Shown here one piece after another: positions 9,001 through 32,107 of a DNA stretch of 64,000 bases. The notes under the pieces were generated by a model. That model ran no database searches. It worked only from the letters and a program-made list of their open reading frames with translations, and was not told where the DNA came from. Made by a program: the position numbers and the translations under genes. Location: contig OZ025806.1 in the NCBI GenBank assembly GCA_964019425.1, positions 1 through 64,000 on the forward strand. The letters run 5' to 3'. This DNA comes from Flectonema sp. DT1601. Its lineage: Eukaryota. Positions within the stretch are counted from its first letter, which is position 1. Each line of letters starts with the position of its first letter.

Positions 9001-11262
9001 GGGTTTGCGGGTTTGCGGGTTTGCGGGTTTGCGGGTTTGCGGGTTTGCGGGTTTGCGGGTTTGCGGGTTTGCGGGTTTGCGGGTTTGCGGGTTTGCGGGT
9101 TTGCGGGTTTGCGGGTTTGCGGGTTTGCGGGTTTGCGGGTTTGCGGGTTTGCGGGTTTGCGGGTTTGCGGGTTTGCGGGTTTGCGGGTTTGCGGGTTTGC
9201 GGGTTTGCGGGTTTGCGGGTTTGCGGGTTTGCGGGTTTGCGGGTTTGCGGGTTTGCGGGTTTGCGGGTTTGCGGGTTTGCGGGTTTGCGGGTTTGCGGGT
9301 TTGCGGGTTTGCGGGTTTGCGGGTTTGCGGGTTTGCGGGTTTGCGGGTTTGCGGGTTTGCGGGTTTGCGGGTTTGCGGGTTTGCGGGTTTGCGGGTTTGC
9401 GGGTTTGCGGGTTTGCGGGTTTGCGGGTTTGCGGGTTTGCGGGTTTGCGGGTTTGCGGGTTTGCGGGTTTGCGGGTTTGCGGGTTTGCGGGTTTGCGGGT
9501 TTGCGGGTTTGCGGGTTTGCGGGTTTGCGGGTTTGCGGGTTTGCGGGTTTGCGGGTTTGCGGGTTTGCGGGTTTGCGGGTTTGCGGGTTTGCGGGTTTGC
9601 GGGTTTGCGGGTTTGCGGGTTTGCGGGTTTGCGGGTTTGCGGGTTTGCGGGTTTGCGGGTTTGCGGGTTTGCGGGTTTGCGGGTTTGCGGGTTTGCGGGT
9701 TTGCGGGTTTGCGGGTTTGCGGGTTTGCGGGTTTGCGGGTTTGCGGGTTTGCGGGTTTGCGGGTTTGCGGGTTTGCGGGTTTGCGGGTTTGCGGGTTTGC
9801 GGGTTTGCGGGTTTGCGGGTTTGCGGGTTTGCGGGTTTGCGGGTTTGCGGGTTTGCGGGTTTGCGGGTTTGCGGGTTTGCGGGTTTGCGGGTTTGCGGGT
9901 TTGCGGGTTTGCGGGTTTGCGGGTTTGCGGGTTTGCGGGTTTGCGGGTTTGCGGGTTTGCGGGTTTGCGGGTTTGCGGGTTTGCGGGTTTGCGGGTTTGC
10001 GGGTTTGCGGGTTTGCGGGTTTGCGGGTTTGCGGGTTTGCGGGTTTGCGGGTTTGCGGGTTTGCGGGTTTGCGGGTTTGCGGGTTTGCGGGTTTGCGGGT
10101 TTGCGGGTTTGCGGGTTTGCGGGTTTGCGGGTTTGCGGGTTTGCGGGTTTGCGGGTTTGCGGGTTTGCGGGTTTGCGGGTTTGCGGGTTTGCGGGTTTGC
10201 GGGTTTGCGGGTTTGCGGGTTTGCGGGTTTGCGGGTTTGCGGGTTTGCGGGTTTGCGGGTTTGCGGGTTTGCGGGTTTGCGGGTTTGCGGGTTTGCGGGT
10301 TTGCGGGTTTGCGGGTTTGCGGGTTTGCGGGTTTGCGGGTTTGCGGGTTTGCGGGTTTGCGGGTTTGCGGGTTTGCGGGTTTGCGGGTTTGCGGGTTTGC
10401 GGGTTTGCGGGTTTGCGGGTTTGCGGGTTTGCGGGTTTGCGGGTTTGCGGGTTTGCGGGTTTGCGGGTTTGCGGGTTTGCGGGTTTGCGGGTTTGCGGGT
10501 TTGCGGGTTTGCGGGTTTGCGGGTTTGCGGGTTTGCGGGTTTGCGGGTTTGCGGGTTTGCGGGTTTGCGGGTTTGCGGGTTTGCGGGTTTGCGGGTTTGC
10601 GGGTTTGCGGGTTTGCGGGTTTGCGGGTTTGCGGGTTTGCGGGTTTGCGGGTTTGCGGGTTTGCGGGTTTGCGGGTTTGCGGGTTTGCGGGTTTGCGGGT
10701 TTGCGGGTTTGCGGGTTTGCGGGTTTGCGGGTTTGCGGGTTTGCGGGTTTGCGGGTTTGCGGGTTTGCGGGTTTGCGGGTTTGCGGGTTTGCGGGTTTGC
10801 GGGTTTGCGGGTTTGCGGGTTTGCGGGTTTGCGGGTTTGCGGGTTTGCGGGTTTGCGGGTTTGCGGGTTTGCGGGTTTGCGGGTTTGCGGGTTTGCGGGT
10901 TTGCGGGTTTGCGGGTTTGCGGGTTTGCGGGTTTGCGGGTTTGCGGGTTTGCGGGTTTGCGGGTTTGCGGGTTTGCGGGTTTGCGGGTTTGCGGGTTTGC
11001 GGGTTTGCGGGTTTGCGGGTTTGCGGGTTTGCGGGTTTGCGGGTTTGCGGGTTTGCGGGTTTGCGGGTTTGCGGGTTTGCGGGTTTGCGGGTTTGCGGGT
11101 TTGCGGGTTTGCGGGTTTGCGGGTTTGCGGGTTTGCGGGTTTGCGGGTTTGCGGGTTTGCGGGTTTGCGGGTTTGCGGGTTTGCGGGTTTGCGGGTTTGC
11201 GGGTTTGCGGGTTTGCGGGTTTGCGGGTTTGCGGGTTTGCGGGTTTGCGGGTTTGCGGGTTT
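1..11262 (+). repeat. (GGGTTTGC)n tandem array, ~1,400 copies; telomere-like satellite, open at window start
   Basis: Continuous 8-mer repeat; the only variant seen is an inserted A at 166 (GGTTTAGCGG). Ends GCGGGTTT|TCCACCACG. Confidence 0.99.
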
Positions 11263-11407
11263 TCCACCACGAAAAAAAATTCGCAGAAAAGATTTAGTAG
11301 CAGAGTGGGGCTGGGGCTCGGTCTTAGCTTTAACGTTAACATAGGAGCGGCGAAAATTACGTCTTTCGGGGTGAAAAGCCAAAAAAAAAAATACATTAAT
11401 AATATAT

Positions 11408-13741
11408 GAGGATGTGCAGAAACCCCCCCCCCCCCAATTTTTACCAGGCTATCCTGTGGGCACCTAACCCCTAATCCGAGCCCACCACCCCACGAAAATA
11501 CTATCCAAAAAACTCAAATCCGGTACTGGGGCACCCTTTTACTGCCCACCAGTTTAAAAACTTCACTTTTTTGACTGTTTCTAGTAACAATTGCCTTGTA
11601 AGCTGTGTAACACTGTGGTAGAAAGTATGTTCATAAATTGTTTTTCCTGAAGGCGCTCAGAAATTGTATAAAAGAATAGATACAACTTGTACTTATTATT
11701 ATGCATATTTCAGCTTTTTTCCTTTCAAACTGTGGGGGTGTTCATCCCGCTTAAGCTTTTTTTTTTTCTTCTCTTTCTCTTGTTTTTCTGATTCCAGTTT
11801 CCTGGCCTTTAACTCCTCGAATAAGTTTTGTTTTCTCTCTCTTGCCCGTGCAAGAGTCCGAGTAAGACTGCCATGCTCTTCTTCAACAGGTTCAGGAGCA
11901 GGTTTATCATCATCACTGCTGAGATCATCGTCGTAATGCGGGTCATTCATCGGGAGCTTGTTGCTAATTTTAGGGACAAAGGTAAGCTTCCTTTGCTTCT
12001 CTTTAAGTTGAAGTTCAAAGCAATCCTCAGGATCTGAACCTGAAAGGGGGCTCACAAAGATCTTATCGTTGATCCTTTGAAAACAGCTGATGGAAGTGAT
12101 GTCTCGGATGTCATATTCTCCGACTGTAAAGTCTTGTTTGCGGAATCGAGTGTACAATGCAGTAGTGTTTGCGATCATAGGCTCGATTGCCGCTTTGACA
12201 TCTTGGAGCGTACAGATTTTCCGCGACTTGGACGCGAGTGTCAGTGCAGATGTGACATTGCCGAAGTGACGGTCACACTCAGACTTGCCATGCCGACCAG
12301 GGAAAAAGTTAACCGAGCTGATTAACTTATTCTGCAGAAGAGAACTGATGACGGTTTTATTCTCAAAGTGTTTACCGGCATCAGCCCAAAAATGAATCAT
12401 CTTGTCCTTCCCATGCATCAAGAAGAACTTCTTCAGAACCAGATAAGTCACTGCGGCACCCTGGTTGATGTGTGGGAGGAGAAAGTCGATATGGTTTCGC
12501 TGAACCTCAGTTCCAAGCTGCTCATGTAGTACACATCCAAGTAGACTGTATTTCCCCTGTTGATAGAAAAGAGAATTTGGCTCTTCTGGCATCAGTGGAA
12601 GCTTCCCCTTCTCTTTGTAATCCAGGGTCATAATTATATGATCACCGGGATTAGATGTGTGTTCACGATACACCTGACACTGCTCCCTTGCTTCGTCGAT
12701 GTGGGAATCTATCTCGATAATTCCTTTGATATACTTCTCAGCTTCAGGCTTGTCGCGCCGTGGAAGGCTGTCCCGCTGATGTAGAAGGCTCCAAAGACCC
12801 CACCCATTACGCCGACCAGCATCCCAGATACATGTGGTGAAGACTGAAGACGTTAGGCGGGCAAGCTTGTTACGGAGACCCTTGCCTGTGAGACAGTAGT
12901 TGCACACATCTGTACGGCGTCGTAACTGCTGAAACTCTACTCCACGTAGAGAACGGTACTGTGTGTATGAGATGGTGTCTTTTAGAGGGGGGTAATCGTA
13001 GACTAGTTGATACGAGGTCATCATGTTTTCAACAGTAACTGCCTCTCCCCTTCTTTTTGATTCGCGGATGAGTTTCTTGCTGGTACTACTAGAGGCCGCA
13101 AGGTGTTCATCTCGAACCTGATTTTTCATGTCGGGTGTTACAACTGATGGGCGACCACCGACATCCACCACCTTGGCTTTGTTCTTCCATAAATCTTTTC
13201 CTACTTTTATCCCAGTCTTGTTCACTTCTGCCATTCCCCAGCCACTGGAACATAGAGCCTGTAGCAGTGCCCTCTGATGAAGCAGCTCTAGATTCTCGAA
13301 AAACTCTGGTAATCCCAAGGGTGTACTTGTTTTGAGCAGCATTGCTTGACCCATCACTGCCAGCAAGAGTGACCCAGGATTACCACCCGATATCGTACTC
13401 AGCAGTTCTCTCACGGACTGTATTATTCTCCATGTCTCACCATTACTTGTCCTATCATTCCAGTTCTCAAAGGAACTCAGAGTTCTAACAAATTTCTGCA
13501 ATGTAGTTCCTAAGCTCATTTTTGAGTATTTTAGGGGTAACTAACAGAGGTATAAGGCAAATGTTACTAGAAACAGTCAAAAAAGTGAAATTTTTAAACT
13601 GGTGGGCAGTAAAAGGGTGCCCCAGTACCGGATTTGAGTTTTTTGGATAGTATTTTCGTGGGGTGGTGGGCTCGGATTGGGTGTTAGGTGCCCACGGGAT
13701 AGCCTGGTAAAAATTGGGGGGGGGGGTTTCTGCACCGCCTC
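11408..13741 (-). mobile_element. Sola2-like DNA transposon, apparently intact
   Basis: ~190-bp TIRs (11408-11600 / 13551-13741) with GAG...CTC termini. ATAT 4-bp TSD (11404-11407, 13742-13745) is confirmed against the empty site in spacer copy 2. Confidence 0.85.
11699..13519 (-). CDS. Sola2-type DDD transposase, 606 aa
   Basis: ATG ORF inside the TIRs. DVCNYC, IMTLDYKEK, FWADAGKHFEN and FFPGRHGKSECDRHFG resemble Sola2 catalytic motifs; K-rich NLS-like tail. Confidence 0.8.
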   Translation of the reverse strand: MSLGTTLQKFVRTLSSFENWNDRTSNGETWRIIQSVRELLSTISGGNPGSLLLAVMGQAMLLKTSTPLGLPEFFENLELLHQRALLQALCSSGWGMAEVNKTGIKVGKDLWKNKAKVVDVGGRPSVVTPDMKNQVRDEHLAASSSTSKKLIRESKRRGEAVTVENMMTSYQLVYDYPPLKDTISYTQYRSLRGVEFQQLRRRTDVCNYCLTGKGLRNKLARLTSSVFTTCIWDAGRRNGWGLWSLLHQRDSLPRRDKPEAEKYIKGIIEIDSHIDEAREQCQVYREHTSNPGDHIIMTLDYKEKGKLPLMPEEPNSLFYQQGKYSLLGCVLHEQLGTEVQRNHIDFLLPHINQGAAVTYLVLKKFFLMHGKDKMIHFWADAGKHFENKTVISSLLQNKLISSVNFFPGRHGKSECDRHFGNVTSALTLASKSRKICTLQDVKAAIEPMIANTTALYTRFRKQDFTVGEYDIRDITSISCFQRINDKIFVSPLSGSDPEDCFELQLKEKQRKLTFVPKISNKLPMNDPHYDDDLSSDDDKPAPEPVEEEHGSLTRTLARARERKQNLFEELKARKLESEKQEKEKKKKKLKRDEHPHSLKGKKLKYA

Positions 13742-13827
13742 ATATATTAAGATTTTTACGTAAGCACGGTAAGTTTTCATACATTTTCTTCTGCTTGGCA
13801 AACAGAGGTGTACAGGCAATAAAAAAA

Positions 13828-13938
13828 CCCCAAAAGAAGAGAATTCTTCCTAAGAGGTTAGCTAAATATTCTAAGCAAGCTTAGATATTGAGACTGTACC
13901 AATAAAGTACAGAAACTGTAGCTTTAGAATCGTTGGTT
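13828..13938 (-). ncRNA. Spliced-leader RNA gene (39-nt exon 13938-13900; intron starts GTACAG)
   Basis: Minus strand reads AACCAACGATTCTAAAGCTACAGTTTCTGTACTTTATTG|GTACAG, a euglenozoan (diplonemid-type) SL; ends at a T7 tract (13821-13827). Confidence 0.95.
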
Positions 13939-14046
13939 AACCTTAAAAAGTAATTACCCCAGGTAATTAGAAATTGCGTGGCTTTTAGAACTACTAGCTA
14001 GTAGTAGCAGAAATGCTTGCTTGCGGGTAGGGAAGCAAGATAAAAA

Positions 14047-14165
14047 GCCTGCAAGCACCCGGGGTTCCCACGTGATCACTCACCGCAGTACTAACCAGGC
14101 CTGCTGGTGCTTAACTTCCCAAATCGGGCGGGATGGGGTGCATTCACCAGAGTATGGCCGCAGGC
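14047..14165 (-). rRNA. 5S rRNA gene
   Basis: 119 nt GCCTGCGGCCATAC...GAAGTTAAGC...GGTTAGTACT...GCAGGC with complementary ends, followed by a T5 Pol III terminator. Confidence 0.96.
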
Positions 14166-14178
14166 AATAGCAGATTTC

Positions 14179-15830
14179 TTTTTTTTTTTTTTTTTTGGTT
14201 ACACTCGTCTGTGCTTCCAGACTCTTTGTTTTTGTTCTTTTCACTTCTTTGTTTTGTCTTTCTTTTATACTTTCTTTTGGTTTAAGTCTGACAAATTGGA
14301 AAACACGGGAAACATAGGTAGGCTCCGCCTGAGGACGTAAGAAGAGCGGCAACGGAAAAGAATAAATGGTCACGCGTCCTTGAAATTGGACACATGAAGC
14401 CAATTCGGTTGCCATTCCTACCATCGATAAGGAAAACAAAGAGTCGAGCATATAACTAGAGCGGTGGTCAAAGACCACTTGAACAGCCCGAAGGGCTGCC
14501 CTCAAGAGAAATTTATAAGGAGAATAGGAGAAGAAGGAGACAGGAGTGTTGGAAGAGACACTGCGACAACACCGAAGGTGATGTGCAGTTACCCAACCAG
14601 GAGATGATTGGTAATGATGAAAATACTAAATATTGATAAAACACTTAAATGGCGACTACGTGTCACCTACACAATTCCAAAGTCTCAGGTTGGATGCTTG
14701 TTCCATCCACCTGATCAACATCGCTACTGAAGGAAGCCAGCTGGTGGCAAAGATTGCGCCAAGACTGGCAGGAGTGCCGTTGATGAGGATTAGATCACTT
14801 GATCGGTCCCATTTGCCTGTCAATGTAGAAAAGCCAAGGATTTCATATCTGGCTGCATCGAGTTTCTGTGATGGACAGCCTACGAGTAGGTGGAGTTGGT
14901 TGGATGGAGCGCTATGGCAGAATGGACATTTGATGGCTTTCCGCCAGTTTTGCATCAGTGGATGACACCCCGTTCTGAAATTCGCAATTCTGATTTCATC
15001 GCTCCTTTTCATGCCGGGAGGATATTTTATCGCGGCACCTTTGACGGTGTTTTTATAGCAGGTGTAACCAATTCTGTTCCAAATGTCCTTCGTGATCCCC
15101 CTCCTCACTCGGGATTTGTGATAGAAGAAGGATCCTCGGATTGGGATTTGAGGGAGGTATCTGTTGTGAGCCGACTTCTTAGCAAGTTCATCAACTTCGT
15201 CGTGTGCTTCTATCCCCATGTGAGAAGGGATGAATTGAAGATGTACTTTCATACCGCAGTTCCGTAGGTTCTCGAGGATGCCGAGGGATCTGGTGTTTCT
15301 CTGTTTACACCTGCCACCCTTCAACTCGTCCAACAATGATTTTGAGTCGGTATAGATTCTGACTGACTTAGTTAACCCGTCTTTCTGTACCTTCCAGTTT
15401 AAGTAGTTTGCCGCATTTTTCAAGGCATGTTGCTCAGTTCTATAGCTGCAATCCGCACGCACTAATCTGGTCGCATGAGCACGTTTCTTTCCGTCTCGTG
15501 ACTTAGCAATGGGAGCCGCGCCTGACGCACTCGAAGAGTATGAACCGTCACAGTTGATCACCATGTCCACCGGAGGAAGTGTCGCGTTGTAGGTAAGGAA
15601 TTTCTCCCTGTCCACTGCGGGATCAGGGGATTTTATAAAACCGCAGCTGTTGCTGATTTGAACATTGCCCGAAGCAATCCAAGGTTTGATAGAGTCAGGT
15701 TGAACGATCCCCACGCTTTCTAGTTGACCTTCAGTACGGGGAATGAGGCCACCCCAGAAGCTTCGAGGCGATGCGAGTGAGTTGGTGTCCGGCACCCAGG
15801 TCATGGCTTTGTACCTGAAATAGGCGATTT
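14179..15830 (-). mobile_element. 5'-truncated Ingi/I-group non-LTR retrotransposon (copy A, diverged subfamily)
   Basis: Poly(A) at 14179-14196; 3' UTR nearly identical to copies B and C. Candidate TSD AAGAAAT (plus strand ATTTCTT at 14174-14180 and 15840-15846). Confidence 0.92.
14656..15830 (-). pseudogene. C-terminal part of ORF2 (RNase H + CCHC), truncated
   Basis: NCDGS, YTDS, FIPSHMGI..HDEVDELAK, CPFC..HLLVGC; collinear with the end of the full-length ORF2. Confidence 0.9.
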
Positions 15831-16001
15831 TTATTTTTTATTTCTTGGGAGTTCAGTGGGATGACCCACCACGAAAAAAAATTCGCAGAAAAGATTTAGT
15901 AGCAGAGTGGGGCTGGGGCTCGGTCTTAGCTTTAACGTTAACATAGGAGCGGCGAAAATTACGTCTTTCGGGGTGAAAAGCCAAAAAAAAAAATACATTA
16001 A

Positions 16002-18149: not shown

Positions 18150-18222
18150 CGCCGTCAGCGGGTTTTGAACCCTCGACCGCCATTCTTGCAGACCGGCGTT
18201 CTATCAATTGAGCTATGTAGCC
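18150..18222 (-). tRNA. Degenerate tRNA-like Pol III gene or pseudogene (isotype uncertain)
   Basis: GGCTACATAGCTCAATTGATAGAACG...GGTCGAGGGTTCAAAACCCGCTGACGGC, with A box, B box, ~73 nt length and a T5 downstream. Acceptor and anticodon stems are mismatched. Confidence 0.65.
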
Positions 18223-18238: not shown

Positions 18239-18904
18239 TTTTTTTTTTTTTTTTTGGTTACACTCGTCTGTGCTACCAAACTCTTTGTTTTTGTTCTTTT
18301 CACTTCTATGTTTTGTCTTTCTTTTATACTTTCTTTTTTGACTTAAGTCTGACAAATTGGAAAACACGGGAAACATAGGTAGGCTCCGCCTGAGGACGTA
18401 AGAAGAGCGGCAACGGAAAAAATAAATGGTCACGCGTCCTTGAAATTGGACACACGAAGCTAATTCGGTTACCATTCCTACCATCGATAAGGAAAACAAA
18501 GAATCGAGCATATAACTTGAGCGGTGGTCAAAGACCACTTGAACAGCCCGAAGGCCTGCCCTCAAGAGAAATTAATAAGGAGAATAGGAGAAGAAGGAGA
18601 AAGGAGTATTGGAAGGGACACTGAGACAACACCGAAGGTGATGTGCAGTTACCCAACCAGGAGATGATTGATAATGATGAACATACTAAAAATAATAACA
18701 AGTTGATATTGGCGACTACATGTCACCTACTTTACTTCCAAAGTCTAAGGTTAGATGTTTGTTCCATCCACCTTATGATCAACGCGAGTGATGGAAGCCA
18801 CGCCAAAGTGAAGAGAGCTTCAAGGTTAGGAATTTCGTTGGCAATAATAAGTTCTCGATCGCGATCCCACTTGCCGGTCAGTGTTGAGAAGCCCAGGATT
18901 TTGA
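18239..18904 (-). mobile_element. Short 5'-truncated retrotransposon (copy B)
   Basis: Poly(A), 3' UTR and the last ~56 codons of ORF2; bounded by ATTCCTTTT at 18234-18242 and 18905-18913. Confidence 0.92.
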
Positions 18905-19395
18905 ATTCCTTTTTTTTTTTTTCGGTTACACTCGTCTGTGCTTCCAGACTCTTTGTTTTTGTTCTTTTCACTTCTTTGTTTTGTCTTTCTTTTATACTTT
19001 CTTTTGGTTTAAGTCTGACAAATTGGAAAACACGGGAAACATAGGTAGGCCCCGCCTGAGGACGTAAGAAGAGCGGCAACGGAAAAATAAATGGTCACGC
19101 GTCCTTGAAATTGGACACATGAAGCTAATTCAGTTACCATTCCTACCATCGATAAGGAAAACAAAGAATCGAGCATATAACTAGAGCGGTGGTCAAAGAC
19201 CACTTGAACAGCCCGAAGGCCTGCCCTCAAGAGAAATTTATAAGGAGAATAGGAGAAGAAGGAGACAGGAGTGTTGGATGAGACACTGCGACAACACCGA
19301 AGGTGATGTGCAGTTACCCAACCAGGAGATGATTGATAATGATGAAAATACTAAAATAATAACAAATTGATATTGGCGACTACATGTCACCTACT

Positions 19396-22300
19396 TTACT
19401 TCCAAAGTCTAAGGTTAGATGTTTGTTCCATCCACCTTATGATCAACGCGAGTGATGGAAGCCACGCCAAAGTGAAGAGAGCTTCAAGGTTAGGAATTTC
19501 GTTGGCAATAATAAGTTCTCGATCGCGATCCCACTTGCCGGTCAGTGTTGAGAAGCCCAGGATTTTGAACCTGGCCGAGTTGAGTTTGGGAGATTGACAT
19601 CCCTGCAGCAGGTGAACCTGTGAGGACGGTTCGCCACAAAATGGGCAGTCGATCGTCTTGCGCCAGTTCTGAATTAGCGGGTGACATCCTGTCCGGAAGT
19701 TCGCTATCCGTATCTCGTCGGCTCTTTCCATCCCAGGAGGGTATTTAACGGAACGGCCTCTGATGAGGTGTTTGTAGCAGGTGTAACCACTCACGTTAAG
19801 CAGATCCTTTTTGATGCAGCGCTTAACATGTGATGATCGCGAGAAGTAAGTGCCTTTGACTAGCACAGGTCGGATGTTCTTGTTGTGCGCTGCTTCCTTT
19901 GCAAGCGCGTCAACTTCATCGTGAAACTCGATTCCAATGTGCGAGGGGATGAATTGCAAATGCACTTTCATTTCACACATGCGCAGGTATTCCAGTATCT
20001 TCAAGGACTCAGTATTCTTCTGTCTGCACCTTCCACCCAGCAGTTCATCCAGAAGGGATTTTGAGTCCGTGAATATCCTTACGGATTTCATTGAACGATC
20101 TTTGCTAAACACCGTTTTCAGATGTCTAGCCGCGTTCTTCAGAGCATGTTGTTCAGTCCTGTAGCTGCAGTCAGCTTGATAAAGCCTAGACGCGTATGCA
20201 GATCGAAGGCCGCTACGTGACTTGGCAATATGAGCCGCACCGGCCGCGCCGGAAGCAGAGTAAGAACCATCGCAGTTGATTACCATGTCGACAGGAGGTA
20301 ACGTTCCAATGTACGACATGAATTTTTCTTTGTCCACCGCAGGGTTCGCGGACTTCGGAAATCCGCAGCTGTTGCTAATCCTAAGGTTCGTCGGAGATAC
20401 CCAGGGTTCCATCGAGTCAGGCTGCACTAAGCACTGGCTTTCACGCTGACTATCAGTGCCAGGGATTAGGCCAGCCCAGTAGCTTTGTGTTGAGGCGAGT
20501 CTGTTTGTATTAGGTATCCAAGTCATGGCTTTATACCTGTAGTACGCAATTTTTGTCTGCTTTTCAATCTGACGTTTAAAAGGATACATGTCAGACTCCC
20601 ACAACAGTAACTCTCTTGGCGTACACTTGCTGCATCCAGTAACCAGTCTGGCGACCTTCCTCAGTTCGAAGTCGATGCTGTCAACGCTGCTGCTTATCAG
20701 CCAACCAAAACTGTCAAGCGCATACGAGATTCTCGCGGTTACATAAAGGTTCTTAACCATGTTAAGAGTCTTGTAGTCCAGTTCGTACGGCTGGAGGCAC
20801 TGCAGAAGTGATATCCCCCTCTTTAATTCTTCGTGAATCTTGCCTACTTGTTTGTGGAAGGTGAGCCTGTCGTCGATGTGAACCCCGAGGTATTTTACTG
20901 AGTCGACTATCGGTAACAGAAAGGCAGTTTTGAATATTGCTCTCACAACCATAATGCTGTCCTCACGAACGACGTATTGCAGCATCAAGTTGTCGAGTTC
21001 TTCTTGTGTCTTGATTGGGATTCCTCCAATTTCAAGAATCGTTTCGCCACTTTGAAGCATGGGTCTGGGTGATTTGAGATTGATATGATTCTCGATGTCA
21101 CCATAGTCAAGTTTAAGCATGCGTTCCTCAACAGATCTAGAGAAAGGCAGTTCGCGATTACACGTATCGTTTAGTACTATGCCCTTCGAGCGAACATTCA
21201 TCTTAAGCGCACAGGTTTTGGAGACTGATAAGGCCATGTCGTTTTCAAAACACCATTGATCCACTTTGTCGAGTACTAACTGAGCATTCGAAAGAGCTTC
21301 TTCCATGTTTGATCCTGACACCACACATGCTGTGTCATCCGCATACAGAGCAGACGTCGTTGTTTCCTTCTCCAGTTCCAAAATCTTGCAGAGGTCATCA
21401 ACGTAGATAAGATAGAGAAGAGGACCCAGGATCGATCCCTGGGGAACCCCCTTAGCCAGAGTACGGAATTCGCTAAAATACCCATTCGCTTCAACTCTAA
21501 CCTTCCTGTTTGTAAGAAAGTCTGTGATCCATCTGATAATAACATTCGGAACACCCATCTTTACTAATTTTAATAAAAGTATCTTATGGTTGATCCTGTC
21601 AAACGCAGCAGTAAAGTCGAATGACAAGAACACTGATCTCTTTTCTTCCATGTGGCTCCTTACGATAGCATCTACTAGAACGGTGATCTGCTCGCAGGTA
21701 TTTCTCCCCTTTCTGAATCCAGCCTGTAGTGGGCTGAGCGACGAATGTTTTGTGAGCCAGTGCATGAGTCGGTCATACACGAGCCTCTCCGCAAGTTTCC
21801 CAACAACCGAGGTGAGCGTTATTGGTCTGAAACTCTTTAGTTCATTACGAGGTTTCCCTGCCTTGAACATGGGCTTGATTAGTCCCTGTTTCCATTGGTA
21901 CGGTACTTTTGAAGTCTTCCAGGAAGTGTTAATAATTCTCAAGAGGTATTCCACTGTTGCCGGAGTGAAGTTTTTGATCATCTCATTGTGAACTCCATCA
22001 GGTCCTGCAGCCTTGCGGGTCTTCAGGTTCTTAATCGCAGCTTTAATTTCAGCCATTGTGAAATCACAGCAAATATCTATTTCATTATCACCTTCTGAGA
22101 GTGCGGGGGCCTCTAGCGATAATATTTCCGATTTCGAGACAAACAGGTCCAAGAATGCTGATGGGAGATCGCAGTCAGAGATGTTGTTGACACTGATATC
22201 CTTACCAGCATCTTGCTGCAGTTCTTTGATCTTCTTAAACGCAAAGGCAAAGTTGTTACCCTTGTCAAGTTGATCACGTAGGTGGACACCCTTCGATTTG

Positions 22301-23307
22301 GTAGAATCAGGGGTTGACGTCTTCCACTTTCGTCCCCGTTTCCCTTTGAAAAGGAGACGTCGACGAATGAATTTAGCCGCCACTTCATGCAGTATGTTGT
22401 TAAAGAGCTTGGCATTCGCAGTTGCATCATCGGAGAGTCTTGATTTTCTAATTCTCTTTTCGAGCATGGTCCCAAAGCAGTTCCAGCCCGTAGACTTGAA
22501 GTCCCATACAACGCGTTTCTTCGAACCTATCGTGGCCCGTGCAAGTTGGCACATGGGATCCAGTACGGTGTAGAGAGGTCGATGATCTGACCCATGTTTA
22601 TTATCTTCTTCAATTGCACTAAATTCTTCAAGAACCATCGAGTTTGAAAAGAATACTACATCTGGCGAGGTACCACCCCCCGGGACGTCAGGAAAAGGCC
22701 TTGTGATTGACCCCATCTTGTTAGCAACCAGTAGATCATTTTGAGCTGCCCATGCATGTAGAGTTGAACCTGCTCTCGTCGATTTAAGTGACCACACCGG
22801 ATGATGGGCATTAAAGTCACCCGCGACGATTGCTTTCGTTGAGACTGGAAGATCTGACTCTCTGATCATGCATCCCGGGGGAGCATAAACATTGATGATG
22901 TCAATCTTTCCACCTATGTTGACCTTCACGACCTCGACATCATTTAAGTGTGGCGGAAGCTCCATGTTCAAACGCTGCTGAGTGTGGCATTTTTTCACCA
23001 TAGAAATAACCCCTCCACCTCGTGTTGCCCTATCATCCCGATAGGTGAAATAGTCCGTGTGCGAAATTACATCATTCGCCCAAGTCTCCTGTAAGCACAG
23101 TACGTCAGGCGCATAGACATTAAGCAGCTTGTGAATATAAGCGCCTTTGTTCCCCATCGATCGACAGTTCCAGCTCAGTAGAGATATGAGAGAGTTGCCA
23201 GGGCCAGGGTTGCGTTCGACGTCGCCTGCCTTTAGCAGCAGTTCACGAGCCGTATCCTTTTCCACAAGTGAGTTGGTCGGACTGAGTTCATCCTCATCGT
23301 CATCTAG
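19396..23307 (-). CDS. ORF2 polyprotein: 2A peptide - AP endonuclease - RT - RNase H - CCHC; no ATG before the first APE motif
   Basis: APE: SWNCRS, CLQET, GDFNAHH, GSDH. RT: KAAGPDG, FRPITLTS, QAGFR, DFTAAFD, GVPQGS, YADD, YLGV. RNase H: NCDGS, FTDS, PSHIG. C-terminal CPFC..HLLQGC. Confidence 0.95.
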   Translation of the reverse strand, partial: LDDDEDELSPTNSLVEKDTARELLLKAGDVERNPGPGNSLISLLSWNCRSMGNKGAYIHKLLNVYAPDVLCLQETWANDVISHTDYFTYRDDRATRGGGVISMVKKCHTQQRLNMELPPHLNDVEVVKVNIGGKIDIINVYAPPGCMIRESDLPVSTKAIVAGDFNAHHPVWSLKSTRAGSTLHAWAAQNDLLVANKMGSITRPFPDVPGGGTSPDVVFFSNSMVLEEFSAIEEDNKHGSDHRPLYTVLDPMCQLARATIGSKKRVVWDFKSTGWNCFGTMLEKRIRKSRLSDDATANAKLFNNILHEVAAKFIRRRLLFKGKRGRKWKTSTPDSTKSKGVHLRDQLDKGNNFAFAFKKIKELQQDAGKDISVNNISDCDLPSAFLDLFVSKSEILSLEAPALSEGDNEIDICCDFTMAEIKAAIKNLKTRKAAGPDGVHNEMIKNFTPATVEYLLRIINTSWKTSKVPYQWKQGLIKPMFKAGKPRNELKSFRPITLTSVVGKLAERLVYDRLMHWLTKHSSLSPLQAGFRKGRNTCEQITVLVDAIVRSHMEEKRSVFLSFDFTAAFDRINHKILLLKLVKMGVPNVIIRWITDFLTNRKVRVEANGYFSEFRTLAKGVPQGSILGPLLYLIYVDDLCKILELEKETTTSALYADDTACVVSGSNMEEALSNAQLVLDKVDQWCFENDMALSVSKTCALKMNVRSKGIVLNDTCNRELPFSRSVEERMLKLDYGDIENHINLKSPRPMLQSGETILEIGGIPIKTQEELDNLMLQYVVREDSIMVVRAIFKTAFLLPIVDSVKYLGVHIDDRLTFHKQVGKIHEELKRGISLLQCLQPYELDYKTLNMVKNLYVTARISYALDSFGWLISSSVDSIDFELRKVARLVTGCSKCTPRELLLWESDMYPFKRQIEKQTKIAYYRYKAMTWIPNTNRLASTQSYWAGLIPGTDSQRESQCLVQPDSMEPWVSPTNLRISNSCGFPKSANPAVDKEKFMSYIGTLPPVDMVINCDGSYSASGAAGAAHIAKSRSGLRSAYASRLYQADCSYRTEQHALKNAARHLKTVFSKDRSMKSVRIFTDSKSLLDELLGGRCRQKNTESLKILEYLRMCEMKVHLQFIPSHIGIEFHDEVDALAKEAAHNKNIRPVLVKGTYFSRSSHVKRCIKKDLLNVSGYTCYKHLIRGRSVKYPPGMERADEIRIANFRTGCHPLIQNWRKTIDCPFCGEPSSQVHLLQGCQSPKLNSARFKILGFSTLTGKWDRDRELIIANEIPNLEALFTLAWLPSLALIIRWMEQTSNLRLWK

Positions 23308-23310
23308 TCA
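23200..23310 (-). other. Recoding cassette: in-frame UGA-CUAG stop followed by a 2A StopGo motif (LLLKAGDVERNPG|P)
   Basis: AAC TGA CTA GAT GAC GAT GAG...; 14 open codons connect the ORF1 stop to the track's ORF2 start in the same frame. Exact DxExNPGP motif. Confidence 0.85.
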
Positions 23311-24957
23311 GTTGAGATCAAAGTCCGAATCGTTACTTTCCATTTCTACGTCACGGTTTTTATCACTACCCTGCTTAGCAGCAGATTCGGTGGGCGGTGT
23401 TGTTGTTTGTGCTGTTGCTGGTGCTGGCGTTGGTGTTGGTGCTGATGGTGCTGGCGCTGGTGTTGGTGCTGATGTCGGCTGCTGAGTTGGCTGTTGTGGT
23501 TGAGGAGTTGTTTTTTGTCTCTTCAGGGTTCCCGTTAGTTTTTGAGCCGCGTCGCCTGGGTTGTAGGTTGGGCCTAGCGGTTTTCTGTCAGTTCGTTTAA
23601 CTTCTTTGTTTATCACAAGGTATTCATTAGTACCTATGCTTACGAAGTTGGGCGGTTGAGATTTCGCAATTGCAACAATTGTAGTACTCCCTCCTTTATG
23701 GAAAGAAGCAACAACTGTGTGTCCCCAGTTGTGTGAGGACTTCAAGAAGTCGCTGATCTGCGCTGTCGAGTACTTACGAATCGCCATCGAATTTATAACA
23801 AACCTGTCGCCCGAGGGCAGTGCAGGCTTGATTGCCGCGTTGAGCTTAATGCTGACCCTGATATTACAGTCAGGGTGGACTCGGAGCCCAAAACAGCTTT
23901 TAAACCTGCACATGTAGAATTTTCCTTTGAATTCATCAAGTGCAGAAGCCTTGGACTTCGCTGCCAGGAAGCCAAGGTCGTTTTTGAATTGCAACGTTGG
24001 CCAAACGTCACTTCCGTTCGACCAACTCGGGTTTCTGAAAAAGACATTCTTGGGTTTGTCAGTTTCGGGTTCGCTGTTGTTGTATTCCAGAACCTCGTGT
24101 ACTTGGTTTCTGGGGACTCTGAAAGCCATCGAGGTGTGGGACTCGTTCTTTCTGTAGCTAAAGGGGTCCGCCTTTATCTTCAATTTCTTTAGAATATCGG
24201 TCGTTTTGACGGTCAATTCTTTCTCAGCTGATTTACCCCCGTCTTGGATGAATAGAACTGGGTTGGGAGTTGGAATCTGGTAGCTAGTTGCTGCTTTAGA
24301 AAAGTCGTCACCAAACACGTGCGTGTAAAATACGCGCCTGATCTCGCAGACGCCACCCTTTTTTATCACCGGTAATGCTACTGGAACGGTGCTCTTTGTG
24401 AGCGGGATTTTGCTGATAGCAGCCCAACGGCCGCTCTTCTTTGTTTGGCGGAGTGCTTCTAAGTCTAGCTTCGAACGAACTAAAACAAGACCAGAGGTAA
24501 GGTTGTTTGTAGCATTAGCTGCTACGTCGTAACTGATGGTGGCCACAGCGCCTGCCCACGCACCGTGAATGTGCCACTCCGGGTAGCTTGCTTTTGCCTT
24601 TCCCTTCGTGGTTTGATTGTCCTTCATTGCTGTCGGTATCGGCAATGAGAACGGCTTCGTACTCGTTTGTTGATTAGAAGCTGTAGATGCTCCTGTAGTT
24701 GGTTGGTTGACACCTGTAGTTGAGGGTGTCGTCGCTTCTGCTGCCGTCGTCGCGGTCGCTTCCGTCCCACCACTCCCATCGAGTGTGTCCGGTGTCCTCC
24801 TCTTCATCTCCGGGTTCCCACCTTCTGACCCAGCTACGAATTGAACGATCCCCATTAGGAGATTTGCCACCCTTCTTTCCTTCTCTTGCTCCGGGATCCC
24901 GTCTTCTCCCACTATCTTCAGGAGGTCCGATACCAACCTCTTCAGGTTGTCTCTCAT
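23308..24957 (-). CDS. Retrotransposon ORF1, 549 aa, no family recognised
   Basis: Starts at the first ATG after the SL relic (MRDNLK). Basic core, T/P/A-rich linkers, acidic end. Confidence 0.85.
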   Translation of the reverse strand: MRDNLKRLVSDLLKIVGEDGIPEQEKERRVANLLMGIVQFVAGSEGGNPEMKRRTPDTLDGSGGTEATATTAAEATTPSTTGVNQPTTGASTASNQQTSTKPFSLPIPTAMKDNQTTKGKAKASYPEWHIHGAWAGAVATISYDVAANATNNLTSGLVLVRSKLDLEALRQTKKSGRWAAISKIPLTKSTVPVALPVIKKGGVCEIRRVFYTHVFGDDFSKAATSYQIPTPNPVLFIQDGGKSAEKELTVKTTDILKKLKIKADPFSYRKNESHTSMAFRVPRNQVHEVLEYNNSEPETDKPKNVFFRNPSWSNGSDVWPTLQFKNDLGFLAAKSKASALDEFKGKFYMCRFKSCFGLRVHPDCNIRVSIKLNAAIKPALPSGDRFVINSMAIRKYSTAQISDFLKSSHNWGHTVVASFHKGGSTTIVAIAKSQPPNFVSIGTNEYLVINKEVKRTDRKPLGPTYNPGDAAQKLTGTLKRQKTTPQPQQPTQQPTSAPTPAPAPSAPTPTPAPATAQTTTPPTESAAKQGSDKNRDVEMESNDSDFDLN

Positions 24958-25015
24958 AATTGCTTTTTCCTGTGAAACGTACCCACTGATTCTTACCAAT
25001 ATTAGGTTGCGAAAT

Positions 25016-25072
25016 CAATAAAGTACAGAAGTACAGAAAAGTACAGAAGTACAGAAGCACAGAAGTACAGAA
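25016..25072 (-). repeat. Stuttered SL relic at element 5' end: six TTCTGTAC-type units, the last continuing into TTTATTG
   Basis: The final 15 nt (TTCTGTACTTTATTG) equal the 3' end of the SL exon at 13914-13900. Confidence 0.9.
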
Positions 25073-25446
25073 TTCCTTTTATTTCTATAAGCCAATGTCT
25101 CTATTAGTTTTCTGACGATATCAAATATTTCTATCCCTTTATCAGTTCTCACACCCCTGTCTTCATCACAAGAAAACTTATATTTAAATTAAGTCCCACC
25201 CACCCTTCCCCCGCCGGTGCCCCGTCGAATCGAAACAGCCCGGTACAACCCCTACGCAGAAGTAATCTGCACCACAGTGTAGATTCTTCTAAGTGATCTC
25301 AGACTTGTTAACTGCATGTTCATTCAATTAAGTATACTTCTCTTTCCCAGGTGCATACAGTATAGGAAGGCTAATTACTCATTATAGTTTTATGTCTGTC
25401 AGAAAACCCGCACAAAATCGACTCTCACCAGGCAATGGTAGGAAAT

Positions 25447-25473
25447 CAATAAAGTACAGAAAGTACAGAAACT
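25447..25473 (-). repeat. Second stuttered SL relic (AGTTTCTGTACTT-TCTGTACTTTATTG-ATTTC)
   Basis: Matches the SL 3' part twice and is followed by the same ATTTC as copy C. Confidence 0.8.
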
Positions 25474-26766: not shown

Positions 26767-26792
26767 TGCGGGTTTGCGGGTTTGCGGGTTTG
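26767..26792 (+). repeat. Interstitial 3-copy GGGTTTGC seed
   Basis: TGCGGGTTTGCGGGTTTGCGGGTTTG; same unit and strand as the large array. Confidence 0.9.
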
Positions 26793-27367: not shown

Positions 27368-29140
27368 CTACAAAAACCTACACAATCTACGAGGCATGAA
27401 AGCCCGATGCCTGAGCAATGTGCTCGTTGGGAGGTTGGTATGCGCAGTCCAAAATGGAGCAAATGGACCGAAATAACTTTTGAAGTTTCTACTATGCACC
27501 GCACCAAATGTTGCCTCGGGGTTGCATTTTCTCAGAATTCCTTTCCAATCCTTTGGAAGAGTCTTGTTTGTGAAGACCAGATGGACATCACGTGGAGAAA
27601 CTGATGCAGATGTGTTCTTTCTAAGCTCGTCTCTGGAGAGGGTTTTCACATCTCCAGCGTGTTCCTGGAGCTTGCATGACACGCTGAGCGTTTGATCCTC
27701 GCTAAGCCTGTAGAAAACGGCAGCTGACGGAGCACCCTTCCCGTTGATAACACACACATCCGTAGTCAATTCCCTCGAACCGCTACTTGTGTTGATGCTC
27801 CAGTTCCCATTCTTAGCTCCAATGGCTGCAGCCTTCTTCTCGCTTGCTGAGGTAATTCGACGGGAACTCTCAATAACTGTTAAAGGTCTGTTGGTGCACT
27901 TCATGTATCCCTTACCGACCCAGTCAGCCCCGTAGTGCATATCATTGAGGCACGTTGCTCCCTTCGGCCGTACATGTGAACGGATTGCGAGGATCTGAGC
28001 CGCGAACTTTTCGTAGCCCTGATTCTCCACTGAAGCTGACCAGTCCCAGTCTCTGAGGGTGGCGGATCCAAGGTTTCTTTGAAGCGCGAGCCACAGGGGT
28101 GCAATCTCCAAACGCCAGTTGTTAAGCGTCATCAATCCAGAGGCAATTACTGGGTCAAGTTCGAGCGCTTCCTCGTCTGACAAATTCTTGAAGCACATGT
28201 TGAGCAGGTGTGGGACGTTGACATCTGGAGCAATCATGCGGTACCTAACAGAAAGGTTGGTGGCAGCATACTCGCACAATTTCTTGAAGGAACAATGGGG
28301 CTTCTTAACGTCAGCAACCGCCTCGACAGCGCGCGGATGACCAAGTGTTAGAGACATCACAGTCTCAGCATTCTGGGTGATCCCTTCAGGCATTCTAAAC
28401 AGCTTGGGGGGGTGCATTAGAGCTCCACTGACCGTAGCTGAGGCCGCCATTGCTTTGCGAACCGGTTCTGAGACTGTGGCACTTGCCACAGGGAACAGGT
28501 TATATGTGTCTGAAAGCATCACACTTGACAGTGTGTGGAGGATGATCCGCATGTTGCTGTTCTGATATGCATCTCTTTCCGAACCCACATTGTGGACACC
28601 GTCGACAAGCAACAATATGAGTGGGTTGTTGCCTGCAGCATCGTGGATTTTCTGTGCGACCGTCCCGATCGTTGTGCCACGCCAGGTGCTCGTGAATTCA
28701 TGGAAAGTTTTTTCTTTACTTCCTCCTTGACCCTTCAGCTGCCACATCATCCGCACCGCTACTGAACCCACGACAGCAGAATGTGAATCTATATCCTCCG
28801 GTAGCACCGGTGTGCCATTTTCGAAAGAAACGCTGACTACTATAAGCTGGTGTTTTTTGAAGTACTTCGGAAAGAACGTCTTTAGCAACCGCGGCACCTC
28901 CGTCAGAGTGCGGCTCTTCCCAGTGCCCATCCCACCTGCGATGGTTACAAGAGATAGCATCTGTTTCGCACCGATCTTGTCTTGGCAGCTTATGAATGAC
29001 TTGAAAGCTTTCTTAAGTGACTTCAGGTCCTTTTTTGCGTGTTGAAAATTCCAGTTTCTCCCAGTATCACCAGATGCGAGCAGAGGGTACAATTTTCTCC
29101 GCAGATCCTCTGACGTAAGCGTAACTTCCGGTTTGGTTTT
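27368..29140 (-). CDS. Crinkler/RHS-type P-loop NTPase + REase-fold protein, probably a 3' exon
   Basis: Walker A GGMGTGKSR, Walker B LLLVDGVH, GHPRAVE and C-terminal NGKGAPSAAVF..SVSCK. Phase-0 acceptor CACTAATACAAACACAG ends at 29141. Confidence 0.65.
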   Translation of the reverse strand, partial: KTKPEVTLTSEDLRRKLYPLLASGDTGRNWNFQHAKKDLKSLKKAFKSFISCQDKIGAKQMLSLVTIAGGMGTGKSRTLTEVPRLLKTFFPKYFKKHQLIVVSVSFENGTPVLPEDIDSHSAVVGSVAVRMMWQLKGQGGSKEKTFHEFTSTWRGTTIGTVAQKIHDAAGNNPLILLLVDGVHNVGSERDAYQNSNMRIILHTLSSVMLSDTYNLFPVASATVSEPVRKAMAASATVSGALMHPPKLFRMPEGITQNAETVMSLTLGHPRAVEAVADVKKPHCSFKKLCEYAATNLSVRYRMIAPDVNVPHLLNMCFKNLSDEEALELDPVIASGLMTLNNWRLEIAPLWLALQRNLGSATLRDWDWSASVENQGYEKFAAQILAIRSHVRPKGATCLNDMHYGADWVGKGYMKCTNRPLTVIESSRRITSASEKKAAAIGAKNGNWSINTSSGSRELTTDVCVINGKGAPSAAVFYRLSEDQTLSVSCKLQEHAGDVKTLSRDELRKNTSASVSPRDVHLVFTNKTLPKDWKGILRKCNPEATFGAVHSRNFKSYFGPFAPFWTAHTNLPTSTLLRHRAFMPRRLCRFL

Positions 29141-29186
29141 CTGTGTTTGTATTAGTGTTTTTTGGAATTATCTGTATGGAATTATC

Positions 29187-30315: not shown

Positions 30316-32107
30316 TTACTGCGGTAAATTAGTGTACATGTCACTAAAGTCAAAGGACTTAACATTTCTATAGCTGAGACAAGTGTAGTTAGCTTTAATA
30401 TACTTAGCTACCTCATCAACATTGTCAACTATGAAATATTTCTGTATTCCGGTTTTCCTTTCTTCCTCTTTTTCTATCGTTTTAATTCTAAACGAACGCG
30501 TTTTTTTTAAGATGCCTGACAGCTCTTTTGACATCTCTGTAGTTGCAGTGAGAGGTTTGCCTCTAAACAAACACTTGTCACCTTCCTTTTGAATATCGAA
30601 GTTTGTTTTTGAGGAAGAACCAGCTATGAAACGAAACTTCATCGGTTTCTTGTGAAACTTCGGACTACCATAAAGATATGGTAAGTTGTTTGTGTGTCTG
30701 AAGCCGTGTTTTTTGTTAAGTTTTTCTAACCTAATCATTTCCTCCTTGGTCTCTTCAATGTTGTATTCTTTGTAGACATTACAACCGTTGATTTGGTTGT
30801 TGAGGGTTTGTTGGTACAAATGTCTACAACACAGAGCTAGGTCGTGTGTTGTCTTGTCAATCTGGAGAAAATCCATGTGTTCTTTGATTTTAGTAATCTC
30901 CTTTTGTACCGTTTGTAGTTCATTATTGTTTTGTAATGGTGGCATTTTACTGATGTAACCTCTCAGGGTTGTTTTTAGAAAAATCGCAAGATTAGTAAAC
31001 TTGCTGTGATCATAATGCAATGAGATGAAATCATCAACTGCTGATTCTACTTCTTTGAGGATCTCATCGCTGTTATCATGTAGGCGATAACGGCCACCTT
31101 TGAGAAGTAGGTTTTTGAATCTCTTTGTTGTCAGCAGCTTTGAAGCGTGAATTAGAACGTGAGAGTCTGTTCGTTTATTTTTGTCAACAAAGTTTTGGCA
31201 AGGGCATTCTTTAGCCGATTTCAAATCTGTTTTTTGGAAGAAACCTACTCTCCGTCGCATGATCACAAAGGGTGTCTCTGAGAGTTGTATTGAGTCTACG
31301 AGAGACTTTCATTCTGGTTAGAGGTTCTGTGCTTCCTGCTGCTAGTTCTAAAGCTTCTTTGCAATTAAATATTCCATTGAAAGGAATATTCTCCATGGCA
31401 GGGGGTACAAATTTGACTTTTAACCAGGCTGCTTTTTGTTTGCCCTGTCTTTTTTCTGATTCTTCAGTGAGACATAACAAGCGTTTTTGTAAAGCATTGA
31501 TAATTATATTCATCTTATCAAGTATTTGGTGCTTAGCATCAATATATTGAAAAATTCAACGTACGGAGTATGTCCATTCCGAGGTAATATCTTCATTTAA
31601 AGAATCGAGATTCAGCAGATGGTTGATCTGTCTTCGGACTGAAGCAAATTTCCCTGCATTGGTTTCTATTGTGAGTTTGTAATCCTCCGTATGATACCAG
31701 GTTCTGAGTTGTGATTTGTCACGTTTCTCTTTGGGTCTGTCTCTTTTATCATCAGGGATAATGGGGGGGTTTACCTTCCGTTTTTTCCCTCTCTCGACGT
31801 TCAAATCGATCCATGTTCAAAGGAGCGTTTAGGTGTTTCAGCCAGAAAACTTCGCCCGGGTCTGCAGCTGTTCTAAAAACACTAACAGGTAGTTCCAGGT
31901 TTCAGTTGACTTTTTCAAGTGTAGCTGCATAGAGAGGTCCTCCTCTTCGGAAGAGGTATTTCTGTAGGGTCCTTTTCTTGGAGTACCTTGAAGACCAGTG
32001 CGCAAAGCTGTTTTACTCTTAGGTTTAGTCACATGTTTCTTTTTCAAGTTGACTTTATCTTCGTTGGGTTTATTGGTGACATTCTTTGAAATATTCGAAT
32101 TATCCAT
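30316..32107 (-). pseudogene. Penelope-like element RT remnant (frameshifted, truncated after RT motif A)
   Basis: IDKTTHDLALCCRHLY, LPYLYGSPKFHKKPMKFRFIAGS, KSFDFSDMYTNLPQ; upstream frames are broken. Confidence 0.8.

What the first reader, a model, noticed from the sequence alone, without database searches (positions are those of the whole stretch)
23200..23310. Double recoding: UGA-CUAG readthrough followed by a 2A StopGo couples ORF1 to ORF2
Seen: ORF1 and ORF2 are one frame split by a single TGA followed by CTAG. The acidic tract continues across it (SDFDLN*LDDDEDEL), there is no ATG before the first APE motif, and DVERNPG|P follows 36 codons later, directly before APE. Known: UGA-CUA(G) is a classic leaky stop context (alphaviruses, mammalian readthrough genes), and 2A peptides precede APE in L1Tc/Ingi. 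Inference: readthrough sets a high ORF1:ORF2 ratio and 2A frees ORF2p from ORF1p. I do not know this combination from a non-LTR element.
Basis: partly seen in the sequence, partly recalled or inferred. Interest (0 to 1): 0.9.

Follow-up and report, generated by a model that had tools for sequence, protein, structure and literature searches.

The report
Leaky stop plus 2A in LINE
In a jumping gene of a marine flagellate (likely a diplonemid), the two proteins lie in one reading frame split by a conserved stop codon and a virus-like skipping peptide, so ribosomes likely leak through the stop now and then and likely release the enzyme as a separate protein, a two-step control not found in our literature searches on such elements.

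Summary
Observation confirmed. A full-length non-LTR retrotransposon (18910-25071, minus strand) has ORF1 (549 aa, RRM-like folds predicted) and ORF2 (APE-RT-RNase H) in one frame, split by AAC-TGA-CTAG. DVERNPG|P follows at codon 36, and the first in-frame ATG lies behind the APE motif SWNCR. The stop is not a private mutation: 21 of 28 listed ORF1 copies of two subfamilies end at SDFDLN, the other 7 break earlier, and none runs on. An independent 82%-identical contig keeps the 17 bases around the stop and changes the spacer mostly conservatively in frame. Six ORF1 lineages end in Asn. Best reading: UGA readthrough, then StopGo (about 0.6); neither step is shown. Against it: sister families have, or may have, an in-frame AUG before the 2A or APE, their junction DNA could not be fetched, and the host SL-trans-splices (the element's own 5' end is SL-derived), so reinitiation or SL addition at CUAG stay open. 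Each part is known; I found the combination in none of the literature searches.

The parts
25072..25080 (-). Upstream copy of a likely 9-bp target-site duplication (AAAAGGAAT)
   Evidence: Same 9-mer at 18905-18913 beside the poly(A); reading as TSD is inferred
25016..25071 (-). Spliced-leader-derived 5' end: last 15 nt of the host SL, preceded by repeats of an 8-nt piece of it
   Evidence: Match to the SL exon at 13938-13900; tandem repeat; P0105 shows the same SL end in another copy
24958..25015 (-). 5' UTR, 58 nt
   Evidence: Between SL end and ORF1 ATG
23311..24957 (-). ORF1, 549 aa: N-terminal helices, RRM/ferredoxin-like domains predicted at about 231-314 and 381-453, disordered acidic tail ending in Asn
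   Evidence: No Pfam hit; AlphaFold mean pLDDT 56.5; VIA Z 6-7 to RRM and ACT domains, none at 8 or more
23304..23313 (-). AAC-TGA-CTAG: last ORF1 codon, stop and leaky-type 3' context
   Evidence: unchanged in the X3 contig
23232..23303 (-). +1-frame mini-ORF (23 codons, three ATGs) that would trap scanning or reinitiating ribosomes
   Evidence: the three ATGs are unchanged in X3
23203..23307 (-). 35-codon spacer ending in the 2A-like peptide ...TARELLLKAGDVERNPG
   Evidence: aligned without gaps to family 2 and a Flectonema family
23200..23202 (-). Pro codon, predicted first residue of free ORF2p after StopGo
   Evidence: activity inferred
22573..23178 (-). APE endonuclease domain
   Evidence: Pfam PF03372 residues 44-242, PF14529 135-245
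21190..21849 (-). Reverse transcriptase domain
   Evidence: PF00078 E 1e-32; best PDB match L1 ORF2p E 5e-30
19890..20290 (-). RNase H-like domain (approximate limits)
   Evidence: CDGS and FTDS motifs; PF00075 passes its cut-off in the family-2 fragment but gave no hit in this copy
18910..19395 (-). 3' UTR (about 470 nt) and poly(A)
13900..13938 (-). Host SL RNA exon (39 nt, followed by GT) next to a 5S rRNA gene; marks the host's expression system
   Evidence: 5S at 14046-14165; SL-5S linkage described in D. papillatum (PMC10161547)

Best explanation
ORF1 and ORF2 of this LINE share one frame split by a conserved AAC-UGA-CUAG stop; most ribosomes likely stop there and give ORF1p, a few likely read through, and the 2A-like peptide 35 codons on is predicted to release an extended ORF1p and a free ORF2p that starts at Pro just before the endonuclease. 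Shown: the anatomy, the conserved stop position, in-frame conservation of the spacer, no in-frame AUG or near-cognate start in codons 1-14 after the stop. Inferred: an SL-capped mRNA read from the ORF1 AUG, readthrough of a few per cent, 2A activity, and a high ORF1p:ORF2p ratio as the purpose. I put 2A activity at about 0.8 and readthrough as the entry route in this family at about 0.7.
For: (1) 13 of 15 listed members of one ORF1 cluster (20 members) and 8 of 13 of a second (73% identical to the window) end in SDFDLN; the other 7 break earlier and none runs on. One of the 13 (P0085) is identical to the window and may be its source. (2) No fused ORF1-ORF2 protein among hits of 716-2281 aa or 962-2745 aa (weak by the tool's own note). 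(3) The one contig that spans the junction (run X3, 151 nt, 25 differences, 16 listed) has none in 23300-23316; chance 0.012 for 17 nt, 0.19 for the 7-mer alone, post hoc. Ten of 16 listed changes are at third positions (p 0.016); after the stop they read D>E, E>D, E>D, L=L, S>N, L=L, V>T with no indel, and the only early GTG is lost. (4) The 27 residues from PT to NPG align without gaps in three families, so ribosomes probably enter the frame by codon 10, yet codons 1-14 hold no AUG or near-cognate start. (5) Three +1-frame ATGs directly behind CTAG would divert scanning or reinitiating ribosomes. (6) UGA-CU(A)(G) alone drives readthrough in a fungus and in HeLa cells (PMC4207609, passages). 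(7) The 2A fits the core (D/G/C/N)(V/I)ExNPGP with an L-rich (A/S/C)G upstream class (PMC12846837 section 10). (8) Control: 0 of 111 other 2A loci with a visible upstream stop have TGA-CTAG (39 have TGA).
Against: No expression, ribosome or reporter data. DNA-level conservation of CTAG rests on one contig of depth 2, from what looks like the sister subfamily. Junction DNA of family 2 and of the Flectonema families was not obtained. Flectonema ORF2 calls have an in-frame Met 31 residues before the skip site (P0003) or just before APE (P0004), so those families need no readthrough. The family-2 call starts MKPTT 34 codons before the skip; this fits TGA-CTA-GTG in frame, but also TGACTAG-ATG with ORF2 in the +1 frame. 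No stable structure follows the stop (z +0.69). UGA-CUAG leakiness is untested in Discoba (nothing in search). Several non-LTR 2As with a good core are inactive (PMC3708506). The terminal Asn is not explained by the known motif.
Confidence: 0.58

Rival explanations
1. Termination-reinitiation: ribosomes stop at UGA and a few restart in the ORF2 frame, at an AUG in sister families and AUG-independently (or at GTG/CTG codons 15-24) in this one, as proposed for L1 and SART1; the 2A then trims the short leader.
For: In-frame Met before the 2A or APE in Flectonema ORF2s and possibly family 2. Gene callers use GTG at codon 15 in P0048, P0057, P0060. SART1 and L1 use reinitiation (PMC5972666; PMC5009743).
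Against: The GTG is changed in X3 (V>T). Codons 3-9 change conservatively in frame. Three +1 AUGs lie nearest the stop. It does not explain CTAG.
Confidence: 0.2
2. The AG of CUAG is a trans-splice acceptor (with CUGAC as a branch-like motif), giving a separate SL-capped ORF2 mRNA.
For: The host has an SL gene and the element's own 5' end is SL-derived. AAC-TGA-C contains YTRAY, the branch motif used in PMC12621601, which could explain part of the terminal Asn. An ATG follows the AG at once and may be in frame in family 2.
Against: In this family that ATG is out of frame in both copies seen. The branch A would be only 4 nt from the splice site. The 25 nt upstream are 60% pyrimidine, rank 47 of 395 AGs in the element, against 72-80% at two putative host acceptors. 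None of 15 listed ORF2 members (of 101) shows an SL-headed start.
Confidence: 0.12
3. ORF2 starts at the +1-frame AUG behind CUAG and shifts into the ORF2 frame before the 2A.
For: That AUG lies 101 nt before the end of the 2A Gly; the family-2 start lies 102 nt before it.
Against: No slippery run or structure is evident. Asp-Asp/Glu codons create such AUGs by themselves. A frame-overlap test on family 2 was not significant (98 of 400 shuffles).
Confidence: 0.05
4. UGA is a sense codon in this host (Trp or Sec), or an intron removes the stop.
For: The frame stays open across the TGA.
Against: A 3296-codon host ORF has 21 TGG and no internal TGA, and two host ORFs end at TGA. No SECIS-like fold in the 3' UTR. 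Spliced RNA would leave stop-less DNA copies; none was found.
Confidence: 0.03
5. Private nonsense mutation or sequencing error in a single ORF1-2A-ORF2 frame.
For: Fused ORF1-2A-ORF2 elements exist (two in Cordylochernes, PMC13405545).
Against: At least 20 other listed copies in two subfamilies stop at the same residue; four further lineages also end in Asn.
Confidence: 0.01

Closest known systems
Ingi/L1Tc non-LTR retrotransposons of trypanosomatids
   Same: 2A directly before APE; APE-RT-RNase H order; euglenozoan host (PMC3708506, PMC3894237).
   Different: They are described as lacking ORF1 and as making unspliced transcripts from the internal Pr77 promoter (PMC1874656, listing only). This element has a 549-aa ORF1, an in-frame stop and an SL-derived 5' end.
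Non-LTR elements with both ORF1 and 2A (CR1-26_BF, CR1-53_BF, CR1-1_LG; fused ORF1p-2A-ORF2p in Cordylochernes scorpioides)
   Same: ORF1 and a 2A-led ORF2 in one element.
   Different: The passages read mention no programmed stop with a readthrough context between ORF1 and 2A.
UGA-CUA(G) readthrough (LDHB, MDH1, OPRL1, fungal TPI1, Sindbis virus)
   Same: Identical stop and 3' context (PMC4207609, PMC13517186).
   Different: There the product stays fused; here a 2A would free it. Not shown in Discoba in the papers found.
Cardiovirus StopGo followed by -1 frameshift
   Same: Two recoding events in series set the ratio of structural to enzymatic protein (PMC5009743).
   Different: Reverse order, frameshift instead of readthrough, a virus.
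StopGo-insulated dual-luciferase readthrough reporters (Loughran 2017)
   Same: Stop readthrough followed by a 2A that frees the downstream protein (cited in PMC5972666; layout recalled).
   Different: Engineered, not natural.
SART1 and L1 ORF2 reinitiation
   Same: Solves the same problem, little ORF2p from a bicistronic RNA.
   Different: Uses an overlapping UAAUG or a spacer, not an in-frame leaky stop.

Membership tests
APE-type non-LTR retrotransposon | APE and RT in ORF2 | tested here: met
   Pfam PF03372, PF14529, PF00078 above cut-off
APE-type non-LTR retrotransposon | Poly(A) tail, target-site duplication, 5'-truncated copies | tested here: met
   truncated copies at 18242-18905 and 14183-15832
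APE-type non-LTR retrotransposon | ORF1p with RRM-type RNA-binding domains | tested here: inconclusive
   Predicted RRM-like topology, best Z 6-7.5, no Foldseek hit at E 0.001
Ingi/L1Tc clade | 2A immediately before APE | tested here: met
Ingi/L1Tc clade | RNase H after RT | tested here: met
   PF00075 in the family-2 fragment and precomputed for P0003, P0004; motifs in this copy
Ingi/L1Tc clade | Single ORF, no ORF1 | tested here: not met
   549-aa ORF1 with homologues against the description in PMC3708506
Ingi/L1Tc clade | Pr77 hallmark / HDV-like ribozyme at the 5' end | tested here: inconclusive
   Rfam E<=1 scan shows none; the 5' end is SL-derived; no Pr77 sequence was on hand to compare
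Ingi/L1Tc clade | RT phylogeny groups with Ingi | not testable with these tools
   No named Ingi/L1Tc sequence was returned by the searches
StopGo/2A (class A) | Core D(V/I)ExNPGP with L-rich upstream helix ending (A/S/C)G | tested here: met
   LLLKAG-DVERNPGP; LLLLAG-DVERNPGP in family 2; LLVTEG-NVEVNPGP in Flectonema
StopGo/2A (class A) | Measured skipping | not testable with these tools
   Needs a reporter
UGA-CUAG programmed readthrough | UGA followed by CUAG, conserved | tested here: met
   Window and one 82%-identical contig; stop position in 21 of 28 listed copies; other families unknown
UGA-CUAG programmed readthrough | Coding-type conservation downstream in frame | tested here: met
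   third-position excess after the stop alone is 6 of 10, p 0.077
UGA-CUAG programmed readthrough | Measured readthrough product | not testable with these tools
   No raw RNA or ribosome data

The most novel reading that the evidence does not exclude
A whole lineage of diplonemid LINEs uses serial double recoding, Asn-UGA-CUAG readthrough followed by StopGo, on an SL-capped mRNA, as a third way to make ORF2p; the invariant Asn before the stop is an unrecognised P-site stimulator, and UGA-CUAG leakiness reaches to Discoba.
Probability: 0.35. Interest if true: 0.88.

Novelty: new variant of a known kind. Interest (0 to 1): 0.72.

Why it matters
How LINEs make a little ORF2p from a bicistronic RNA is a long-open question (PMC3894237). 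This family offers a compact, testable answer: a 110-nt cassette in which stop, context and 2A can each be mutated. If it holds, it is a natural readthrough-then-StopGo switch, a test of whether the UGA-CUAG signal works in Discoba (P. papillatum is transfectable), and a natural series of sister families that may have switched between AUG entry and readthrough. It also goes against the proposal that 2A replaces ORF1 in such elements.

Tried and rejected
No host genome is held. Junction DNA of relatives: ORF1 profile in metagenome and viral contigs and ORF2 profile in GTDB found nothing. A TGACTA-to-2A pattern (gap 66-96) gave 6 viral and 4 GTDB loci, 10 of 10 out of frame. Sequencing runs: 4 listed, shares 0.06-0.15, no RNA holder listed; 1 of 4 runs covers the junction, with one contig. 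A downstream stimulatory hairpin is not supported. A SECIS was not found. My idea that family 2's ORF2 start is a frameshifted echo of its ORF1 tail failed a shuffle test (98 of 400). The ESM Atlas gave no answer. Earlier scan notes: nothing. ARAGORN found no tRNA. Distant ORF1 relatives do not end in Asn: P0125 (NQQ) and the D. papillatum cluster of P0130 (KRS). P0129 is a repeat-driven false hit and was dropped; P0127, P0128 and P0131 are N-terminal fragments and were not counted.

Full report
What is there. The finding sits in a full-length non-LTR retrotransposon on the minus strand, 25071 to 18910. ORF1 runs from ATG 24957 to 23311 (549 aa). TGA 23310-23308 and CTAG follow, then 1303 open codons in the same frame with APE, RT and an RNase H-like domain. 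DVERNPG ends at codon 35 after the stop, Pro is codon 36, LSWNCRS starts at codon 44 and the first in-frame ATG is codon 51. A poly(A) and a likely 9-bp target duplication flank the copy.

Host. A 39-nt SL exon followed by GT lies at 13938-13900 beside a 5S rRNA gene, the arrangement described for Diplonema papillatum (PMC10161547, passages). The closest named proteins are from Flectonema neradi, with a distant ORF1 relative in D. papillatum. The host is therefore most likely a diplonemid. It uses the standard code: a 3296-codon ORF has 21 TGG and no internal TGA. The element's 5' end carries the last 15 nt of the SL, 58 nt before the ORF1 ATG, and P0105 shows the same SL end behind the poly(A) of a preceding copy. 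So the element's RNA is probably SL-capped, which makes the trans-splicing rival a real one.

Is the stop programmed? Yes. Of 15 listed members of the nearest ORF1 cluster (20 in all), 13 end in SDFDLN; of 13 members of a second cluster (73% identical to the window), 8 do. The other 7 break earlier, and none extends past the Asn. P0085 equals the window's ORF1 and may be its source. Nine of 15 listed ORF2 members (of 101) keep the APE start and begin at the codon-15 or codon-51 position; none is longer. No fused protein was found (weak). In family 2 (44% ORF1 identity) 15 of 15 listed ORF1s end in SN. Two more unnamed lineages end in EMN and MEN, and two Flectonema ORF1s in YRN and YSN, although the tails do not align and Asn is 3% of tail residues. 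These lineages are related, so this is not six independent draws. Two more distant relatives do not end in Asn.

Is the context conserved? One contig of run X3 (151 nt, depth 2, 25 differences of which 16 are listed) spans 23227-23366 without indels and has no change in 23300-23316. Random placement gives 0.012 for that block and 0.19 for the 7-mer alone (post hoc). Ten of 16 changes are third-position. After the stop they are D>E, E>D, E>D, L=L, S>N, L=L and V>T, which is how translated sequence changes, and the GTG that gene callers use is lost. The other three runs do not cover the junction.

How do ribosomes enter ORF2? The 27 residues from PT to NPG align without gaps in this family, family 2 and a Flectonema family, so they are probably translated. 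Codons 1-14 after the stop hold no AUG or near-cognate start. The nearest AUGs are three in the +1 frame that end after 23 codons or fewer. Readthrough explains the shared frame, the CUAG, the spacer conservation and the need for a 2A to free the endonuclease from a 549-aa ORF1p. UGA-CU(A)(G) suffices for readthrough in Ustilago and HeLa cells (PMC4207609, passages), and the P-site codon modulates it (PMC13517186, passages), which may bear on the Asn. The 2A matches the core and the L-rich upstream class (PMC12846837, passages and section 10). No downstream structure stands out. All of this is inference; nothing here measures translation.

Results against. The Flectonema ORF2 calls begin at Met 31 residues before the skip site (P0003) or just before APE (P0004). 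The family-2 call begins MKPTT, 102 nt before the end of the 2A Gly. The gene caller also renders GTG as Met (P0048), so this fits TGA-CTA-GTG in frame, but it fits equally TGACTAG-ATG with ORF2 in the +1 frame; the window has an ATG at that place, 101 nt away and out of frame. Protein data cannot decide, and no junction DNA was found. AACTGACTAG also resembles a branch motif plus acceptor, though the spacing is very short and the pyrimidine content ranks 47 of 395 AGs. Some non-LTR 2As with intact cores are inactive (PMC3708506, passages).

Controls. Among 150 2A matches in 149 loci from metagenomes and viruses, 111 show an upstream in-frame stop, 39 of them TGA, 1 TGA-CTA, none TGA-CTAG. A direct TGACTA-to-2A pattern gave 10 hits, all out of frame. 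The arrangement is not a general feature of 2A elements.

Comparison with what is known. 2A before APE is known from L1Tc and Ingi, which are described as lacking ORF1; a few CR1 elements have both (PMC3708506, passages and section 9; PMC3894237, parts 1-2 of 3). Fused ORF1p-2A-ORF2p was reported in a pseudoscorpion (PMC13405545, passages). Serial recoding is known from cardioviruses (PMC5009743, passages). SART1 and L1 use reinitiation (PMC5972666, passages). Searches for readthrough plus 2A, or readthrough between LINE ORF1 and ORF2, listed no such case (also passages of bioRxiv 2026.09.24.754024). The library lacks most subscription papers and Repbase, and I read no supplements; the 2A catalogues in those of PMC13405545 and the bioRxiv paper could hold related peptides. 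The element works like an Ingi-type 2A element with an ORF1 added in front; Ingi membership is not shown and one described feature (no ORF1) is not met.

Verdict. A real, conserved feature. Readthrough then StopGo is the best explanation for this family (0.58); reinitiation (0.2) and SL addition (0.12) remain. New variant of a known kind, interest 0.72.

Noticed in passing
window 14176-14198, 18240-18257, 18910-18922: All three copies end at A-run + G(G/A)AAT. Two sit 13-16 bp upstream of a 5S rRNA gene (14165) and a tRNA-like sequence (about 18150-18222, not called by ARAGORN), same strand; the third is nested in the second's duplication. Sequence- or Pol III gene-directed targeting is possible.
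   Followed up: partly
window 18926-19395 vs 14199-14655: The 3' UTRs of families 1 and 2 are 97.7% identical over 432 nt while the adjacent coding DNA is 67% identical: a recently swapped or strongly constrained 3' end.
   Followed up: partly
window 25016-25071: The SL remnant at the element's 5' end is preceded by about six copies of an 8-nt piece of the SL, perhaps from RT slippage at the capped end or repeated cycles; SL relics are known in dinoflagellate retrogenes (PMC12014239, listing only).
   Followed up: partly
window 25081-25470: A second SL-headed unit of about 367 nt starting ATTTC like the LINE's 5' UTR; no Rfam match; possibly a retroposed RNA or non-autonomous element. P0123 shows its 3' part before a family-2 copy elsewhere.
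   Followed up: no
window 1-11262: 1408 copies of GGTTTGCG, telomere-like but with the G-rich strand on + at the left end; three more units at 26767-26792.
   Followed up: no
window 11400-13749: DNA transposon-like element: 613-codon ORF without Pfam hit, 201-bp terminal inverted repeats 95% alike, and a 129-bp direct repeat at 11271-11399 and 15873-16001.
   Followed up: no
window 38238-48756 and 53474-64000: 10.5-kb duplication at 99.7% identity covering a 3295-codon ORF with 23 RTX-type calcium-binding repeats.
   Followed up: no
window 27368-29167; 30316-31308: An NTPase-like ORF (weak AAA hits; CRN-like by recall) and a degenerate RT-like fragment (Penelope/DIRS-like by recall; no Pfam hit).
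   Followed up: no
L078 1-1245 (minus): An unrelated LINE-like contig with a 239-codon frame, one TGA (context ACGC), 14 codons without ATG, GDVEHNPGP and APE; single copy, so the stop may be decay.
   Followed up: partly
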